Of a stretch of DNA of 64,000 nt, positions 2,971 to 51,419 are shown one piece after another. Within the stretch, counting starts at the first letter, position 1, and each line of letters begins with the position of its first letter. Origin of the DNA: Patescibacteria group bacterium (GTDB lineage Bacteria > Patescibacteriota > Minisyncoccia > Minisyncoccales > Staskawiczbacteraceae); assembly GCA_022703425.1 (NCBI GenBank), contig JAKLDQ010000003.1:1729-65728 (forward strand). The letters run 5' to 3'. The notes below the pieces were generated by a model, which worked only from the letters and a program-made list of their open reading frames with translations, did not search any database and was not told where the DNA came from. The position numbers and the translations under genes were made by a program.

Positions 2971-4482
2971 ATGAATATTTGGAAAAAAGAAAAAATAAGA
3001 GTTAGGATTGCACCGTCTCCGACGGGCGCTTTACATATTGGAACTGCGCGAAGCGCGCTTTTTAATTATTTGTTTGCAAAAAAGAACAAAGGATCATTTA
3101 TCCTCAGGATTGAAGATACCGACCTTGAAAGATCGGATTTGAAATGGACACAGGATATAATCGATGGTTTAAAATGGCTGGGAATTGAATGGGATGAGGG
3201 TCCTGATATCGGCGGTGCGTTCGGCCCCTATAAACAAACTCAGCGCATTGAGTCGTATACAAAATACCTCGAAAAACTTTTGGGCGAGGACAAAGCATAT
3301 TTCTGCTTTTGCTCTTCAAAAGATCTCGAAGAAAAAAGGCAGGAACAAATGACTAGGGGAGCGGCTCCAAAATATGACGGAACATGTGCTCATCTTTCAA
3401 AAGAAACCGTCAAAAAAAATATTTCGGAAGGGAGGCCGTCTGTCATCCGGTTTAGAATGCACGAGAAGAAAATAAAATTTAAGGACCTGATAAGGGGGGA
3501 AATCGAATTCGATACCGGACTGATGGGGGATATTGTTATTGCAAAAGACACAAAAACTCCGCTGTATAATTTTGCAGTGGTTGTTGATGATTATGAGATG
3601 CAAATTTCGCATGTAATCCGAGGCGAAGACCACATTGCAAATACGCCGAAACAAATGATGCTGCAGGATGCGCTTTCGTTTAAGCCGCCGGCATATGCCC
3701 ATATTCCTTTAATCCTTGCTCCTGATCGCTCAAAGATGAGTAAAAGGTATGGGTCTGTATCAATCTCAGATTATAAAAACATGGGTTATTTGCCCGAGGC
3801 AGTTATAAATTTTATGGCATTGCTTGGCTGGAATCCGGGAACTGAAAAAGAAATCTTTTCGCTGTCACAGCTTGAAAAAGAATTTTCGCTGGACAAGGTT
3901 CAAAAAGCGGGCGCCGTTTTTAACATTCAACGGCTGGATTTTATAAACGGATACTATATCCGCGAGAAATCGGATAAAAAGGTTGCTGAGCTTTGCTTGC
4001 CGTATCTGATGTCTGCCGGATTGATTGACGGGAACCGAAAAATCAAAGGAGGAGAAGAAGTTTCGGAAAAAAAGCTTGAAAAAATAATCCAGGCATACAA
4101 GGCGCGGCTGAAAAAACTTTCTGAAATTGTTGAACTTGCAGATTTCTTTTTCAAGGAAAAGCTGGAATACAACATGAATAAGTTAAAATGGGGGACTATG
4201 GATTATGCACAGACAATTGAATCGCTAAATTATTCAGAGAAAATATTGTCTGAAATTGATAATTGGGAGCAGAAGATTTTAGAAGAGAAGTTGATGGGTG
4301 CAGCAACAAAATTCAATTTGGAAAAAGGATATCCGGAGAAGAACAGGGGATACTTGCTTTGGCCGCTGCGAGTCGCCCTTTCTGCAAAGGAAGCGTCTGC
4401 CAGTCCGTTTGAGATTGCAGATATTTTGGGAAAGGAAAAAACGTTGCAGAGAATAAACGATGCAATAGAGGCGCTCGCCTAG
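2971..4482 (+). CDS. gltX: glutamate--tRNA ligase
   Basis: RIAPSPTGALHIGTAR (HIGH) and KMSKR (KMSKS) class I motifs. Start moved to ATG 2971 (MNIWKKEKIRVRIAPSPTG); the ORF-track start 2917 overlaps murG. Confidence 0.93.
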   Translation: MNIWKKEKIRVRIAPSPTGALHIGTARSALFNYLFAKKNKGSFILRIEDTDLERSDLKWTQDIIDGLKWLGIEWDEGPDIGGAFGPYKQTQRIESYTKYLEKLLGEDKAYFCFCSSKDLEEKRQEQMTRGAAPKYDGTCAHLSKETVKKNISEGRPSVIRFRMHEKKIKFKDLIRGEIEFDTGLMGDIVIAKDTKTPLYNFAVVVDDYEMQISHVIRGEDHIANTPKQMMLQDALSFKPPAYAHIPLILAPDRSKMSKRYGSVSISDYKNMGYLPEAVINFMALLGWNPGTEKEIFSLSQLEKEFSLDKVQKAGAVFNIQRLDFINGYYIREKSDKKVAELCLPYLMSAGLIDGNRKIKGGEEVSEKKLEKIIQAYKARLKKLSEIVELADFFFKEKLEYNMNKLKWGTMDYAQTIESLNYSEKILSEIDNWEQKILEEKLMGAATKFNLEKGYPEKNRGYLLWPLRVALSAKEASASPFEIADILGKEKTLQRINDAIEALA

Positions 4483-4493
4483 TTTTGCGGTTT

Positions 4494-4506
4494 TTATTGT
4501 GCGACA
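4494..4506 (+). repeat. 13-mer TTATTGTGCGACA, copy 1
   Basis: Exact copy, 11 nt after the gltX stop. GCGACA-17 nt-TAAAAT (4501-4529) could serve as promoter for the next gene. Confidence 0.9.
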
Positions 4507-4551
4507 AAATTGTTTATTTGTATTAAAATTTTATTTTATAAATAAGATAAA

Positions 4552-4944
4552 ATGCAAAGAAAAAACAGCGGATTTATAAAATATCTCGCATTAATAATTA
4601 TTGTTCTCGGTGTGGTTTTTGTGAGCCAGCAGCCGTATTTCAAAAAATATGGTGAAAATCTTGTTTCTGAGGGGGCAAGCATGGGCCAATCCTATATTGC
4701 GAGCGGTTCTGCATGGCTTAAGGATCATCTTTTGGAATCCCTATCGGGGGAAGTGGAAAAGAGGGGAGAGGCGGCAATGGACACCGTGGAAGAAACAAAG
4801 GAAAATATTTCCGATGGCGCTGCAACAAAAATAAAAGATTATTTTTCCGGAATAGTGGATGCAGTGATCCATCCGGGGAAAAGCGCGGTAACTGAACAGC
4901 CGGCAAATTGTCCGCCCGTTGCAAACCCTTATCCGACAAAATAG
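4552..4944 (+). CDS. hypothetical membrane-anchored protein
   Basis: 130 aa ORF with one N-terminal hydrophobic helix (YLALIIIVLGVVFV). No recognisable domain. Confidence 0.5.
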   Translation: MQRKNSGFIKYLALIIIVLGVVFVSQQPYFKKYGENLVSEGASMGQSYIASGSAWLKDHLLESLSGEVEKRGEAAMDTVEETKENISDGAATKIKDYFSGIVDAVIHPGKSAVTEQPANCPPVANPYPTK

Positions 4945-23075: not shown

Positions 23076-23163
23076 ATTTTTATATTTATTATTTGTTGAC
23101 TTTTAATTATATTCGTTATATAATATAGACTAGTTCTGTAACAATCTTTCTACGAGGTGATTT

Positions 23164-23394
23164 ATGCAGTGCAAGAATGAAGTTGCGTGCGATGGAACAG
23201 TTGACACCGGAAATTCTATTCCTCTTCGGACAAGCTGTTCATCATTTCGGGCAGCACATCCTTGTCAAAAGTGTGGTCGTTTGCATTGGGAAAATGGCAA
23301 GCCGGTATTCAATCGGCAGGACCATCGTGCCTTTTTCGAAGGTGGCACTATTGTCCATCGCGACAATGACAATGTCGAAACGTGCAGGTTTTGA
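23164..23394 (+). CDS. hypothetical small Cys-rich protein, antisense-oriented between dnaK and grpE
   Basis: Strong SD GAGGTGA 5 nt before the ATG and an intrinsic terminator GCCGCTATC-TCTG-ATAGCGG-T6 at ~23414-23440. 76 aa with 6 Cys including CQKC. No family recognised. Confidence 0.4.
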   Translation: MQCKNEVACDGTVDTGNSIPLRTSCSSFRAAHPCQKCGRLHWENGKPVFNRQDHRAFFEGGTIVHRDNDNVETCRF

Positions 23395-23472
23395 TTGCCC
23401 TGGCTAACCATTTTGCCGCTATCTCTGATAGCGGTTTTTTATTTTTATCCTCCGGCAAGCTCAGAATGAAAA

Positions 23473-24452: not shown

Positions 24453-24502
24453 AAACAACAAAAAAGCCCGATTTAAAAATCAGGCCCCTGTGATGGTGGT
24501 TT

Positions 24503-24823
24503 TCAGACGGTGCAAAGAGCCCCTTGGGGACTCATCATTTCGAGAAGCTGTGCTTTTAGGGCGTTAAATTCGGTAAGAAGTTTGTTGATGCGTCTTGTTT
24601 TGTCGCACTTTCTTATGTTGCGGAAATCCACTTCATCCATTTGACCCAAACACCGGATCATCTTATCAATTGCTTTTTCGGCCTCAATGCTCAGGCCGGA
24701 GCTGCTTCTTACGCGCTCAACGATAAGATATCGTGTCTGGGCGATTGCCCCCGGTTCGTCAATTGCAAAGTTTACAGCCAGCCGCTGAATGAGTTCGTCG
24801 TTAGTTCCTACTAGGATCGACAT
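24503..24823 (-). CDS. hypothetical protein
   Basis: GGAGG SD 6 nt before ATG 24823, G+C-richer than the surroundings, terminator after the stop. No family recognised. Confidence 0.45.
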   Translation of the reverse strand: MSILVGTNDELIQRLAVNFAIDEPGAIAQTRYLIVERVRSSSGLSIEAEKAIDKMIRCLGQMDEVDFRNIRKCDKTRRINKLLTEFNALKAQLLEMMSPQGALCTV

Positions 24824-25061
24824 AGCCAACCTCCTCGGCAGAAATGAATACGTCGGGCCAACCTCCGTTTGCCTCTTCCCTCATCCTTCGTATCATTTCG
24901 TCTGCGATCTCGTCGGTAAATTCCGGGAATCTTGAGTCCTTTCTGCACCTGTTAATGTTGCTGATTGCCTTTTCCATTGATTCTCTTGTATAGAAAATCT
25001 TAAAAAGACGACCTGTTTCGTGCGAAATAAAGGCGACCATGTTCACATATTCTTCTTCCAT
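24801..25061 (-). CDS. hypothetical protein
   Basis: ATG 25061 (MEEEYVNMVAF...) with AAGGA upstream. The ORF-track N-terminal extension overlaps the tRNA-like gene and is rejected. Confidence 0.4.
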   Translation of the reverse strand: MEEEYVNMVAFISHETGRLFKIFYTRESMEKAISNINRCRKDSRFPEFTDEIADEMIRRMREEANGGWPDVFISAEEVGYVDPSRN

Positions 25062-25114: not shown

Positions 25115-25274
25115 TGGAGTCGGCAGGACTCGAACCTGAAACCTCTTGCTTATTTCCATCGGCCTCAGATGATTTCCCGGGAGCCCAATTCCATTGGGCA
25201 TTGCGATTACATCTGAGAAGCTGGTACAAGCCGTGGAAATTTTGCAAGCGCTCTCCCAATTGAGCTACGACCCC
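25115..25274 (-). tRNA. tRNA-Ala-like gene with a 94-nt structured segment in place of the 7-nt anticodon loop
   Basis: GGGGTCG/CGACTCC acceptor (G3:U70), D arm GCTC-AATTGGGA-GAGC, anticodon stem CTTGC/GCAAG, variable AGGTT, T arm TCAGG-TTCGAGT-CCTGC. 94 nt lie between the anticodon-stem strands and fold into nested helices. Confidence 0.6.
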
Positions 25275-25346
25275 GATAACTTACTCTATGGTATAAAATA
25301 TTAAGTTTTTCGTCAACAAAAAATCGCGCCCTTTCGCGGTTGCAAA

Positions 25347-27593: not shown

Positions 27594-27938
27594 TTATTTA
27601 ATAATATTTCCCGGAGGAATCTCTCTGTCCGGGTGCAAAAGCGCCGGTTTGCCGTCGGCATCGGACGGACAGAGGATCATTCCCTGGCTTTCGAGCCCTT
27701 TTAATGACTTTGGCTCAAGATTATATGCAAAGGGACATTGCTTGCCTACAAGCGACTCGGGTTCATAAACCTTTCCTATCCCTGCAATTATCTGCCTGAT
27801 TATTCTGCCTTCGTTTTCCTCACCGAAACTCACTTCCATTTTTAAAAGCTTGTCTGAACCTTCTACTCGCTCAGCCTTCTCAATTCTTCCGATTCGTATT
27901 TCCAATTTTTTAAAATCGTCAAAATTTATTGTTTCCAT
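27594..27938 (-). CDS. tRNA-binding domain protein (CsaA/EMAP-II-like)
   Basis: F.KLEIRIGRI..AERVEGSDKLLKMEVSFGEE...GMIL matches the OB-fold tRNA-binding domain. Confidence 0.85.
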   Translation of the reverse strand: METINFDDFKKLEIRIGRIEKAERVEGSDKLLKMEVSFGEENEGRIIRQIIAGIGKVYEPESLVGKQCPFAYNLEPKSLKGLESQGMILCPSDADGKPALLHPDREIPPGNIIK

Positions 27939-50381: not shown

Positions 50382-51419
50382 TTATAGCCCGCGTTTAATC
50401 TTGCGTAATAGTTCTATTATATAATTAATCCAGTATTTTTGCGAAATCACGTAATCCTGCGTTTTTATGTATTCCTTTTTAAACCCGCCGTATCCCATTT
50501 TAAAGAGAGTCGGTCCTGCCCAGGGGTGATTCGGATTTTCCTTCGGATCAACAAATCCCCAAAAATCATACAGCTCGCATCCCCTGCTCTTTGCTTCCTT
50601 TATTGCTTCCCATTGCAATAAGTAAGGAATTGAATGCTTTGAAAACTCCTCCAACGAAGCCGCCTGATGATAAAAGCCGATGCCAGACCAGAAAATTACC
50701 AAAGCGCCCGCCGCAACCTCTCCTTTATATTTGCCCAGCAACAAAAGTGCCTGTCCGTCCTTGTTAAACGCATCAAACTCGTCATTTATAAATTTATCTG
50801 AAAAAGGAACGAATTTCTGGCGCTCAGAAACTTTTTTATTCAGTTGTTGATAGATTGCAATGTCAGACGGATTTTTGCTTTTTTCAATCGAGATATCCCG
50901 GCTGTCAGATGTTTTTTTGATCAGATAGCGCGTGGTCTTTCGCATATTCTTTAACAAAACATCTTCTGACTGGTTTATTTTCAGCTTCCATGTCGCTTCG
51001 TAGGCGGAAGCGTGCATCAGCGACTTCCTGAATTTTAAACCAGAAAAAATCTTTTCGTTCTCTGCGCTGTTTTCGAGCAAAGGCGCAATGCGGGCAAAGC
51101 TGGCATTCTCTTTTTTTGCATTTGACCTGAGCCATCCAACGAGCGTTTGTAAAATTTCCTTTTTTTCGTTTGCTGGCAGGTCTTCTGACATTACCGGACC
51201 ATGTGGAATTAAAAAGAAAGTCCCGCGTTTTGCAGAAATTTTAACAACCAAAGCTACGGCAAACGGCGCGCCGTCTGAATATATTCCGATTCTCCAGATT
51301 TTGTTTTTCTGTAATTTCTGGAATTCACCCCAATTCCATGACTGCAAAAACGTCTTTTCCTCGTGCAAAGACAAAAAATCCTCCCATTCCTGTTTGTTTT
51401 GTATTTCCTTAATCTGCAT
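50382..51419 (-). CDS. FemAB-family peptidoglycan interpeptide-bridge peptidyltransferase
   Basis: FLQSWNWGEFQK start and full-length similarity pattern to FemX/FemAB (..FYHQAAS.., YDFWG..). Confidence 0.82.
   Translation of the reverse strand: MQIKEIQNKQEWEDFLSLHEEKTFLQSWNWGEFQKLQKNKIWRIGIYSDGAPFAVALVVKISAKRGTFFLIPHGPVMSEDLPANEKKEILQTLVGWLRSNAKKENASFARIAPLLENSAENEKIFSGLKFRKSLMHASAYEATWKLKINQSEDVLLKNMRKTTRYLIKKTSDSRDISIEKSKNPSDIAIYQQLNKKVSERQKFVPFSDKFINDEFDAFNKDGQALLLLGKYKGEVAAGALVIFWSGIGFYHQAASLEEFSKHSIPYLLQWEAIKEAKSRGCELYDFWGFVDPKENPNHPWAGPTLFKMGYGGFKKEYIKTQDYVISQKYWINYIIELLRKIKRGL

What the first reader, a model, noticed from the sequence alone, without database searches (positions are those of the whole stretch)
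25115..25274. tRNA-Ala-like gene whose anticodon loop is replaced by a 94-nt rod-like structured segment
The tRNA body is canonical: acceptor GGGGUCG/CGACUCC with the alanine identity pair G3:U70, D arm with GG, variable loop AGGUU, and T arm with UUCGAGU. Between the anticodon-stem strands CUUGC (25248-25244) and GCAAG (25149-25145) lie 94 nt instead of 7. These fold as AUUUCCA-CGGC/GCCG-A-UGGAAAU, then CUCAGAUG/CAUCUGAG, then GCCCAAU-GGA-AUUGGGC. No position gives a sensible 7-nt anticodon loop (no U33, no Ala anticodon) after removal of a canonical 37/38 intron. The segment is far too short for a group I intron, and I see no bulge-helix-bulge motif. It could be an unusual intron, a tRNA-derived ncRNA with an extended anticodon arm, or a tRNA gene disrupted by a small palindromic insertion. 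Two small G+C-rich hypothetical genes follow on the same strand.
Basis: partly seen in the sequence, partly recalled or inferred. Interest (0 to 1): 0.7.

Follow-up and report, generated by a model that had tools for sequence, protein, structure and literature searches.

The report
Anticodon-less alanine tRNA-like RNA gene
This is a real, conserved gene for a tRNA-shaped RNA that keeps every mark of an alanine tRNA except the anticodon, so it probably cannot read codons and likely does some other job; similar genes occur in related ultra-small bacteria and in large phages.

Summary
Window 25115-25274 (- strand) is a cloverleaf tRNA body (Rfam tRNA, 45 bits) carrying the AlaRS identity set (G1-G4, G3:U70, A73, G20). 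The 7-nt anticodon loop is replaced by a 94-nt rod (arm -41 kcal/mol, z = -5). It is not an assembly artefact: three independent assemblies are identical. It is not a repeated element, and no family other than tRNA matched it in Rfam, so no known intron.

The decisive evidence is comparative. Four relatives near Candidatus Staskawiczbacteria have a homologous gene at the same locus, between a promoter and a ~100-aa ORF upstream of hrcA-grpE-dnaK. None has an anticodon loop. Their arms end in 3-5-nt loops or a 32-nt hairpin.

All five anticodon-stem pairs covary, while G3:U70 is invariant. The body is better conserved than the neighbouring genes. Large-phage tRNA arrays hold similar G3:U70 genes.

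Best reading: a non-decoding, tRNA-Ala-derived RNA whose anticodon arm evolves freely, with the window holding the largest arm seen. It is probably processed like a tRNA and alanylated. What it then does is inferred only: an alanine donor outside translation (a FemAB gene is in the window), a decoy, or a 5' processing module. I found no published description in the literature I could search.

The parts
25288..25316 (-). Sigma-70-like promoter of the unit: TTGACG, 17 nt, TACCAT. It ends about 13 nt before the first base of the tRNA-like gene.
   Evidence: Consensus scan. Similarly placed TTGCAA/TTGAAA -35 boxes and AT-rich -10 boxes precede the homologues in L101, L109, L116 and L120 (read).
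25115..25274 (-). The whole tRNA-Ala-like gene (160 nt): a cloverleaf body with the anticodon loop replaced by a rod.
   Evidence: Rfam RF00005 at 45 bits, model positions 1-71. Covariation of all four helices across homologues.
25244..25274 (-). 5' body: acceptor 5' strand GGGGUCG, U8 A9, D arm with G18 G19 G20, G26, and anticodon-stem 5' strand CUUGC.
   Evidence: Sequence; alignments A1 and A4.
25150..25243 (-). 94-nt lineage-specific extension of the anticodon arm. From the base outward: a 3x2 A-rich internal loop; helix AUUUCCA-CGGC/GCCG-A-UGGAAAU; a 12-nt one-sided loop; helix CUCAGAUG/CAUCUGAG; a 10x11 internal loop; and hairpin GCCCAAU-GGA-AUUGGGC.
   Evidence: Fold of the arm, z = -5.0. 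No other copy anywhere in the data held.
25115..25149 (-). 3' body: anticodon-stem 3' strand GCAAG, variable loop AGGUU, T arm UCAGG-UUCGAGU-CCUGC, acceptor 3' strand CGACUCC (U70), and discriminator A73. CCA is not encoded.
   Evidence: Sequence; Rfam alignment.
24801..25061 (-). ORF86, an orphan gene found only in this lineage. It has an AAGGA ribosome-binding site and lies between the tRNA-like gene and the conserved small ORF.
   Evidence: ORF list. Only a self hit among 5.8 billion proteins. AlphaFold single-sequence model with pLDDT 74 and a beta-beta-alpha-alpha fold. No PDB fold match.
24503..24823 (-). ORF106, a member of a ~93-108-aa helical small-protein family. In relatives this ORF directly follows the tRNA-like gene and precedes hrcA.
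   Evidence: Alignment A3 with the L100, L101, L103, L109, L116 and L120 ORFs, 20-29% identity, shared motif around M-D/E-x-x-D-x-D and LLxRM. Sequence searches find no wider family.
24462..24489 (-). Intrinsic terminator that closes the tRNA-like/ORF86/ORF106 unit. The separate hrcA promoter lies at 24445-24417.
   Evidence: Terminator scan: 12-bp stem plus a T run; sequence.

Best explanation
The locus is a gene for a non-decoding tRNA-like RNA that descends from tRNA-Ala(UGC). It belongs to a small family found near Candidatus Staskawiczbacteria (Patescibacteria). Look-alikes occur in large-phage tRNA arrays.

In this family, the acceptor stem, D arm, T arm, variable loop and a 5-bp 'anticodon' stem are kept. 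The anticodon loop has been lost, and the tip of that arm evolves freely: a 3-5-nt cap, a 32-nt hairpin, or the 94-nt rod seen here.

Shown:
- The RNA has its own promoter.
- The cloverleaf is maintained by compensatory changes.
- The AlaRS identity set (G1:C72, G2:C71, G3:U70, G4:C69, G20; A73 in 4 of 5) is invariant while neighbouring pairs change.
- No member can form a U33-NNN-R37 loop.

Inferred from established tRNA biology:
- The transcript is trimmed by RNase P and RNase Z, receives CCA, and is charged with alanine. AlaRS reads the acceptor stem and not the anticodon.
- Because it has no anticodon, it cannot be selected on a codon.
- It therefore acts outside decoding.

Candidate roles, none tested:
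- Most plausibly, a dedicated Ala donor for an aminoacyl-tRNA-dependent transferase. A FemAB-family gene sits in the window's cell-wall cluster.
- Alternatively, a body-mimic decoy or regulator for tRNA-binding proteins.

The 94-nt rod is a lineage-specific elaboration. It may be a protein-binding platform. ORF86 is equally lineage-specific, but that link is speculation.
For: Real tRNA body:
- Rfam tRNA at 45 bits, full length.
- Identical in three independent assemblies.

Homologues at the same locus in relatives (HrcA 57-59% identical to the window's), none with an anticodon loop:
- L101 4411-4509: UCUGA + 32 nt + UCAGA.
- L109 1666-1737: UCCCG-CUUG-CGGGA.
- L116 843-915: CCCCG-CUAAG-CGGGG.
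- L120 1932-2002: CCCCG-CAG-UGGGG.
- Sources.

Covariation on the five bodies:
- 97% of cells are paired.
- 9 of 21 pairs have double changes, including all 5 anticodon-stem pairs.
- 0 of 500 shuffles reach the observed covariation score.
- Slid registers give 44-58% pairing.
- G1-G4 with C72, C71, U70 and C69 never vary, while pairs 5:68, 6:67 and 7:66 do.
- With four phage genes added, 12 of 21 pairs covary.

Purifying selection:
- Body identity is 73-78% between the window and the others, against 66-68% for hrcA DNA and 56-59% for the small ORF.
- Among L109, L116 and L120 it is 94-97%, against 84-88% for hrcA and 65-85% for the small ORF.
- Their differences fall in the anticodon arm (27:43, 31:39 and the cap) plus one T-stem base (position 50).

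Transcription unit:
- Promoter and terminator bracket the unit.

Possible consumer:
- A FemAB-family gene lies at 50382-51419 (99.6 bits).

Look-alikes in phages:
- G3:U70 genes with encoded CCA and capped or extended arms occur in phage tRNA arrays. Two arrays also hold a normal tRNA-Ala(UGC) (L131, L148; L131 also has GGC). The genes are in L126, L131, L147, L148 and L251.
Against: - No expression, processing or charging data exist. Alanylation is inferred from identity elements only.
- There are only five bacterial members, and three of them are close relatives. That makes about three independent lineages, so 'G3:U70 invariant' rests on few events.
- L101 has G73 instead of A73.
- The phage members were retrieved with a pattern that demanded GGGG...CTCC. 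Their Ala identity is therefore by construction.
- Several syntenic relatives have the small ORF but no tRNA-like gene (L100, L103, L111). The RNA is therefore dispensable at this locus, or lies elsewhere in those genomes.
- The T stem carries a mismatch in three of five members (U49.C65 in the window; U50.U64 in L109 and L116). This could mean decay as easily as tuned EF-Tu avoidance.
- FemAB also occurs in a relative that has no tRNA-like gene at the hrcA locus (L097). There is no co-occurrence evidence.
- I could not see whether the source genome has a normal tRNA-Ala(UGC). Only 64 kb is available.
Confidence: 0.62

Rival explanations
1. It is a cis-acting tRNA-like module in the 5' leader of the small-ORF mRNA. 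RNase P and RNase Z cut it out, which defines and stabilises the 5' end of the downstream message. The released RNA has no function of its own.
For: - The element always lies between a promoter and the small ORF, 53-76 nt upstream of the first ORF's start codon.
- A small hairpin follows the discriminator.
- No strong terminator separates the RNA from the ORF.
- tRNA genes are embedded in operons here; for example tRNA-Lys follows dnaJ in the window and in L097.
- The anticodon tip is unconstrained, as expected if only the RNase P/Z substrate shape matters.
Against: - Processing enzymes do not need G3:U70, G2:C71, G4:C69 or G20, yet these never vary while pairs 5-7 do.
- Relatives express the same small ORF from a plain leader without the element (L100).
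- Phage look-alikes sit in tRNA arrays with encoded CCA, like working tRNAs.
Confidence: 0.2
2. It is a decaying tRNA-Ala pseudogene. A former tRNA-Ala(UGC) lost its anticodon loop, and in this lineage picked up a palindromic insertion. It persists only because its promoter drives the small ORFs.
For: - There is no anticodon.
- T-stem mismatches occur in 3 of 5 members.
- Several syntenic relatives lack it.
- Its distribution is patchy. Two collection scans for Ala-type bodies with 79-109-nt inserts found no further case.
Against: - Nine pairs show compensatory double changes, and 97% of cells are paired.
- The body is better conserved than hrcA DNA and far better than the adjacent ORF.
- The tertiary-contact bases U8, A14, G18, G19, U54-U55-C56 and A58 are intact in all members.
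- The insert is single-copy.
Confidence: 0.1
3. It is an intron-containing decoding tRNA. The 94 nt, or part of it, is spliced out to give a working tRNA. ARAGORN's intron mode proposes tRNA-Ser(GGA) with an 85-nt intron at 31/32.
For: - ARAGORN -i builds such a model.
- Patescibacteria are rich in tRNA group I introns, including at unusual sites (PMC13011429).
- A phage tRNA-Ala (L152) has 94 nt at the same place. Removing 87 of them regenerates a UUUGCAA loop.
Against: - The ARAGORN model shifts the anticodon stem by one base, removes position 26, makes an 8-nt variable loop, and pairs a Ser anticodon with an Ala acceptor and no long variable arm.
- No simple excision gives U33.
- There is no group I or group II match at the gathering score or at E <= 10.
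- 94 nt is less than half the size of a group I core.
- By my own reading of the sequence, there is no staggered bulge-helix-bulge motif.
- Insert-free homologues still lack an anticodon loop.
Confidence: 0.04

Closest known systems
Canonical bacterial tRNA-Ala(UGC)
   Same: - Acceptor stem GGGG.../...CUCC with G3:U70, A73 and G20.
- D arm GCUC-...GGGA-GAGC and G26.
- Anticodon stem CUUGC/GCAAG, compared with CCUGC/GCAGG in E. coli.
- Variable loop AGGUN and T loop UUCGAnU.
- The Rfam tRNA model matches full length.
   Different: - There is no 7-nt anticodon loop, no U33 and no UGC anticodon.
- The arm is extended by 94 nt here, and capped by 3-5 nt in homologues.
- There is a U49.C65 mismatch.
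tRNA-like domain of tmRNA (SsrA)
   Same: Both are non-decoding RNAs that carry Ala identity through G3:U70, lack an anticodon, and are processed and charged like a tRNA (tmRNA facts from reviews PMC3985003 and PMC3929946).
   Different: - tmRNA has no D stem or anticodon stem.
- Its acceptor stem is formed by the two ends of a ~350-nt RNA that encloses pseudoknots and a tag ORF.
- It needs SmpB.
- Here the cloverleaf is complete and local, there is no tag ORF, and ARAGORN's tmRNA mode finds nothing.
Non-proteinogenic tRNA-Gly isoacceptors of Staphylococcus used by FemXAB for peptidoglycan bridges (PMC7826273)
   Same: - The concept is the same: an extra tRNA gene kept out of translation that serves an aminoacyl-tRNA-dependent cell-wall transferase.
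- A FemAB-family gene is present in the window.
- The T stem is irregular.
   Different: - Those tRNAs keep a normal anticodon loop. From my own knowledge, this is expected because GlyRS reads the anticodon.
- They escape translation through weak EF-Tu binding.
- Here the anticodon itself is gone.
- No functional link to FemAB has been shown.
Group I intron-containing tRNAs of Patescibacteria (Nakagawa et al. 2026, PMC13011429)
   Same: Same phylum. Both are tRNA genes missed or mis-called by standard tools because of an insertion in the anticodon region.
   Different: - Those inserts are self-splicing group I introns whose removal restores a normal anticodon loop.
- Here the insert is 94 nt, has no group I match, and restores no loop.
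Minihelix-Ala / anticodon-independent AlaRS substrates (synthetic, from established aminoacylation biochemistry; review PMC9976931)
   Same: They show that an RNA with only the G3:U70 acceptor helix is alanylated. That is why an anticodon-less RNA can stay chargeable for Ala.
   Different: Those are laboratory constructs. This is a natural gene with a full L-shaped body.

Membership tests
tRNA (Rfam RF00005) | Cloverleaf with acceptor, D and T arms and the conserved tertiary nucleotides | tested here: met
   45 bits against a gathering score of 29, model positions 1-71. U8, A14, G18, G19, U54-U55-C56 and A58 are present.
tRNA (functional decoder) | 7-nt anticodon loop with U33, an anticodon and a purine at position 37 | tested here: not met
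   94 nt replace the loop. All 8 possible junction loops lack U33. Homologues have 3-5-nt loops.
tRNA-Ala identity (AlaRS substrate) | G3:U70 with G2:C71, G4:C69, A73 and G20 | tested here: met
   All are present in the window. They are invariant in the five bacterial members, except G73 in L101. Actual charging is not testable with these tools.
Group I intron in tRNA | Intron of roughly 200 nt or more with a P3-P8 core; excision restores the anticodon loop | tested here: not met
   No Rfam family other than tRNA (and two chance sub-threshold matches) is reported for this stretch, at the gathering score or at E <= 10. The insert is 94 nt. No loop is restored.
Archaeal-type (BHB) tRNA intron | Two 3-nt bulges separated by a 4-bp helix at the exon-intron junctions | tested here: not met
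   By my reading of the predicted fold, the junction is a symmetric-position 3x2 internal loop (AAA / AA), not staggered bulges. The window's rRNA matches the bacterial LSU model. Presence of a splicing endonuclease was not tested.
tmRNA | tRNA-like domain formed by the 5' and 3' ends, a tag reading frame, and pseudoknots | tested here: not met
   ARAGORN's tmRNA search finds none. There is no Rfam tmRNA hit.
Miniature mobile or palindromic repeat insertion (MITE/REP-like) | Multiple dispersed copies; terminal inverted repeats with a target-site duplication | tested here: not met
   There is a single copy in 64 kb and in all fetched loci. Only the window is available, not the whole genome.
Y RNA-like (YrlA) | Match to RF02553 at or above the gathering score; adjacent rsr gene | tested here: not met
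   16.7 bits against a gathering score of 69, E = 1.2. It is a chance overlap with the T arm.
Non-proteinogenic tRNA for FemAB-type transferases | A FemAB-family transferase in the genome | tested here: met
   Window 50382-51419, PF02388 at 99.6 bits.
Non-proteinogenic tRNA for FemAB-type transferases | The charged RNA is used by the transferase and excluded from EF-Tu or the ribosome | not testable with these tools
   This needs biochemistry. T-stem mismatches in 3 of 5 members are only suggestive.

The most novel reading that the evidence does not exclude
Anticodon-less, AlaRS-chargeable tRNA-like RNAs form an unrecognised functional class shared by Patescibacteria and large phages. They would be dedicated alanine carriers (or acceptor/elbow mimics) that work outside codon reading, for example by feeding FemAB-type cell-wall transferases or by diverting tRNA-targeting enzymes. 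In this reading the free tip of the anticodon arm is a site for lineage-specific add-ons, such as the 94-nt rod here.
Probability: 0.25. Interest if true: 0.85.

Novelty: new variant of a known kind. Interest (0 to 1): 0.66.

Why it matters
Apart from tmRNA, I know of no described natural bacterial RNA that keeps tRNA-Ala identity while having no anticodon, and my literature searches found none. From established aminoacylation biochemistry, alanine is one of the few amino acids whose synthetase ignores the anticodon. It is therefore where a chargeable but non-decoding tRNA could evolve.

A conserved family of such genes would matter in three ways:
- It would extend the known non-translational uses of aminoacyl-tRNAs.
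- It would explain some of the 'undetermined' tRNA calls in genome annotation.
- It would provide a compact natural scaffold: a tRNA body with a freely replaceable arm.

It also makes a concrete question testable: is an anticodon-less tRNA charged and used in vivo, and by what?

Tried and rejected
Collection scans:
- Genome-contig scan for Ala-type bodies with 79-109-nt inserts: 76 loci. Nearly all were tandem tRNA genes; the rest were partial tRNA-Ala copies or chance upstream matches next to a real tRNA, plus one archaeal intron (L049). There was no homologue.
- Metagenome-contig scan with a non-U33 filter: 15 loci, no homologue.

Downstream ORFs:
- ORF86 and ORF106 searched against 5.8 billion proteins: self hits only.
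- phmmer of ORF106 against 1.84 billion representatives: no family.
- ORF106 as a single sequence gave pLDDT 44.
- The ORF86 model (pLDDT 74) has no PDB fold match.
- Pfam gives only a sub-threshold DUF1940 hit for ORF86.

Other checks:
- The ARAGORN intron-mode call tRNA-Ser(GGA) was examined and rejected.
- The weak Rfam hits to YrlA and mir-932 are chance.
- Literature searches for anticodon-less or tRNA-like RNAs in Patescibacteria found no prior description.
- The idea that the window's insert and the same-length (94-nt) insert of phage tRNA-Ala L152 are related was dropped. The folds differ (a rod against a three-way junction), and only L152 regenerates an anticodon loop.

Full report
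**Observation.** On the - strand, window 25274-25115 reads GGGGUCG-UA-GCUC-AAUUGGGA-GAGC-G-CUUGC-[94 nt]-GCAAG-AGGUU-UCAGG-UUCGAGU-CCUGC-CGACUCC-A.
- Rfam's tRNA model aligns it end to end at 45 bits (gathering score 29), with a 94-nt insertion in place of the 7-nt loop.
- Default ARAGORN misses it.
The energy is -41.2 kcal/mol against -24.5 +/- 3.3 for shuffles (z = -5.0).
- Every coordinate in the finding is correct.
- The same 1-kb sequence was assembled independently in two JGI samples and one ENA sample, so it is not an assembly artefact.

**Organism and setting.** The window is bacterial: it holds bacterial 23S and 5S rRNA. The HrcA homologues place it near Candidatus Staskawiczbacteria in the Patescibacteria, with the best non-self hits at about 60% identity. 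On the - strand the gene order is:
- EamA transporter
- O-methyltransferase
- promoter (TTGACG-17-TACCAT, 25316-25288)
- the tRNA-like gene
- ORF86
- ORF106
- terminator (24489-24462)
- a separate hrcA promoter, followed by hrcA-grpE-dnaK-dnaJ and tRNA-Lys

**Not an intron, not a mobile insertion.**
- None of the eight ways of joining insert ends into a 7-nt loop gives U33 or an Ala anticodon.
- ARAGORN's intron mode forces a tRNA-Ser(GGA) model. To do so it shifts the stem register, deletes position 26 and inflates the variable loop. The model also conflicts with the Ala acceptor and with the long variable arm that bacterial tRNA-Ser carries.
- No Rfam family other than tRNA gives a meaningful match, even at E <= 10.
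- The stem/insert junction is a 3x2 internal loop, not a bulge-helix-bulge.
- The insert has no second copy in the window or in any fetched locus.

**Comparative evidence.** I used HrcA homologues to fetch syntenic contigs. Four further, distinct versions of the same gene turned up. Each lies behind a promoter-like site and in front of a homologue of ORF106, upstream of hrcA.

| Locus | Coordinates | Anticodon arm |
|---|---|---|
| L101 | 4411-4509 | UCUGA + 32-nt hairpin + UCAGA |
| L109 (Staskawiczbacteria GCA_001821995.1) | 1666-1737 | UCCCG-CUUG-CGGGA |
| L116 | 843-915 | CCCCG-CUAAG-CGGGG |
| L120 | 1932-2002 | CCCCG-CAG-UGGGG |

None has an anticodon loop.

On the five bodies:
- 97% of cells pair.
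- 9 of 21 pairs carry changes on both sides, including all five anticodon-stem pairs.
- No shuffle of 500 reaches the observed covariation score.
- Slid registers pair at 44-58%.
- G1:C72, G2:C71, G3:U70 and G4:C69 never vary, while 5:68, 6:67 and 7:66 do.
- G18, G19, G20, the variable loop AGGUU and the T loop are constant.

The body is better conserved than its neighbours:

| Comparison | Body | hrcA DNA | Small-ORF DNA |
|---|---|---|---|
| Window vs the other four | 73-78% | 66-68% | 56-59% |
| Among L109, L116, L120 | 94-97% | 84-88% | 65-85% |

Within the L109/L116/L120 group the differences fall in the anticodon arm (its cap and two stem pairs) plus one T-stem base (position 50). That is the opposite of a working tRNA, where the anticodon loop is the most constrained part.

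Some syntenic relatives keep the small ORF but have no tRNA-like gene there (L100, L103, L111).

**Wider occurrence.** Pattern scans of viral contigs found G3:U70 tRNA-Ala-like genes with encoded CCA and no anticodon loop, inside tRNA arrays of large phages:
- L131: a 5-bp stem with an AUAU loop. The same array carries normal tRNA-Ala(UGC) and tRNA-Ala(GGC).
- L126: a 13-nt arm.
- L148: an 8-bp stem capped by UUCG, next to tRNA-Ala(UGC).
- L147: a 47-nt continuous hairpin.
- L251.

The pattern imposed the Ala acceptor on these, so only their existence and arm shapes are evidence. At least 120 normal-length tRNA-Ala genes match the same pattern. In the 154 viral loci held, ARAGORN left 12 of 888 tRNA calls undetermined. 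With these four phage genes added, 12 of 21 pairs covary.

**Mechanism.**

*Shown:* a separately promoted, structurally maintained tRNA-shaped RNA gene that has Ala identity elements and no anticodon.

*Inferred from established knowledge:*
- RNase P, RNase Z and the CCA-adding enzyme act on the acceptor/T-arm/elbow, which is intact.
- AlaRS recognises G3:U70 and neighbouring acceptor bases independently of the anticodon. Minihelices and tmRNA are both charged (PMC9976931, PMC3985003).
- The RNA should therefore be alanylated but cannot be selected on a codon.

*Speculative:* what the charged or uncharged RNA then does.
- The window encodes a FemAB-family aminoacyl-tRNA-dependent transferase in a Mur-ligase/FtsQ/PBP cluster.
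- Staphylococci are known to reserve special tRNA-Gly species for such enzymes (PMC7826273).
- A dedicated Ala donor is therefore the most concrete proposal, but no co-occurrence supports it (L097 has FemAB without the RNA at this locus).
- The phage copies suggest a decoy or hijack role as an alternative.
- The 94-nt rod and ORF86 are both unique to this lineage. A physical link between them is possible but untested.

**Rivals.**
- *A pure 5'-leader processing module for the small ORF.* This fits the position and the free arm tip. It does not explain the invariant AlaRS identity set or the phage array copies.
- *A decaying pseudogene.* This fits the T-stem mismatches and patchy distribution. 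It does not fit the compensatory changes or the above-background conservation.
- *An intron-bearing decoder.* This is contradicted by the insert-free homologues.

**Comparison with known systems.** It is tRNA-Ala in every respect except the anticodon. It resembles tmRNA in idea only. It is not a group I, BHB, MITE or YrlA case; each of these was tested and not met. The searchable literature describes Patescibacteria tRNA group I introns (PMC13011429) but nothing like this.

**Verdict.** This is a genuine, conserved, non-decoding tRNA-Ala-derived RNA gene. The window carries its most elaborate version. I rate it a new variant of a known kind (tRNA-like ncRNA). There is a reasonable chance that it marks an unrecognised functional class.

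Noticed in passing
L101 3985-4320; L109 1195-1520; L120 1405-1845: A 300-440-nt GC-rich, gene-free, conserved block with its own promoter and terminator lies just upstream of the tRNA-like gene in three relatives. It has a long-range helix GUGUGAAGAGGGGCUCU/AGAGCCCCUCUCACAC and a motif AAGGAGACCCCAGAUAUGA, which is duplicated in L120. There is no Rfam match at E <= 1, and its AAGGAGACCCCAGA motif is absent from the window. It is probably an undescribed structured RNA.
   Followed up: partly
L131 9262-9334; L126 844-915; L148 (- strand, record 4540-4615); L147 (- strand, record 1586-1687); L251 9189-9270: Large-phage tRNA arrays carry G3:U70 tRNA-Ala-like genes with encoded CCA whose anticodon arm is capped by a tetraloop or extended into a hairpin. 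Normal tRNA-Ala genes lie in the same array in L131 and L148.
   Followed up: partly
L122-L146 (for example L123 4383-4451, L136 1927-1995, L134 3445-3515, L124 6052-6118): About 16 distinct phage tRNA-like genes have 11-15-nt anticodon arms and non-Ala acceptor stems. ARAGORN labels several as undetermined or as odd tRNA-Cys(ACA). In the viral loci held, about 1.3% of tRNA calls are undetermined.
   Followed up: partly
L152 2395-2553: A phage tRNA-Ala has 94 nt between the anticodon-stem strands. Removing 87 nt regenerates a perfect UUUGCAA (UGC) loop. The 5' exon ends in U and the intron ends in G, as in group I introns, yet 87 nt is far too short for a group I core. The insert folds as a three-way junction (z = -5).
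   Followed up: partly
L006, L029, L031, L044, L075, L085, L091, L093, L095: In Chitinophagales and related Bacteroidota, a partial 5' copy of tRNA-Ala (positions 1-53) lies directly upstream of a real tRNA-Ala(GGC). In the copy, the anticodon loop is replaced by a UCCCGAAAGCAUUCGGGA-type hairpin. The arrangement is conserved across genera.
   Followed up: no
L089 768-896: A soil-metagenome tRNA-like gene with G3:C70 has a 98-nt insert between the anticodon-stem strands and no U33 at the junction.
   Followed up: no
window 50382-51419 (-): A FemAB-family aminoacyl-tRNA-dependent transferase lies in a cluster with a Mur ligase, a DegT aminotransferase, FtsQ and PBP2. SerRS and a class II (Asp/Lys/Asn-type) synthetase are nearby.
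   Followed up: partly
window 27594-27938 (-): A free-standing 114-aa tRNA_bind (PF01588, Trbp111/CsaA-like) protein lies 2.3 kb upstream of the tRNA-like gene. The position is conserved in the near-identical contigs.
   Followed up: no
window 24801-25061 (-): ORF86 has no homologue among 5.8 billion proteins. Even so, it gives a fairly confident single-sequence AlphaFold model (pLDDT 74, beta-hairpin plus two helices) with no PDB fold match. Like the 94-nt rod, it is unique to this lineage.
   Followed up: yes
window 23076-23472: A 397-nt gene-free gap lies between grpE and dnaK, with GC up to 0.48. Relatives have either extra small genes (DUF3467) or a similar gap there.
   Followed up: no
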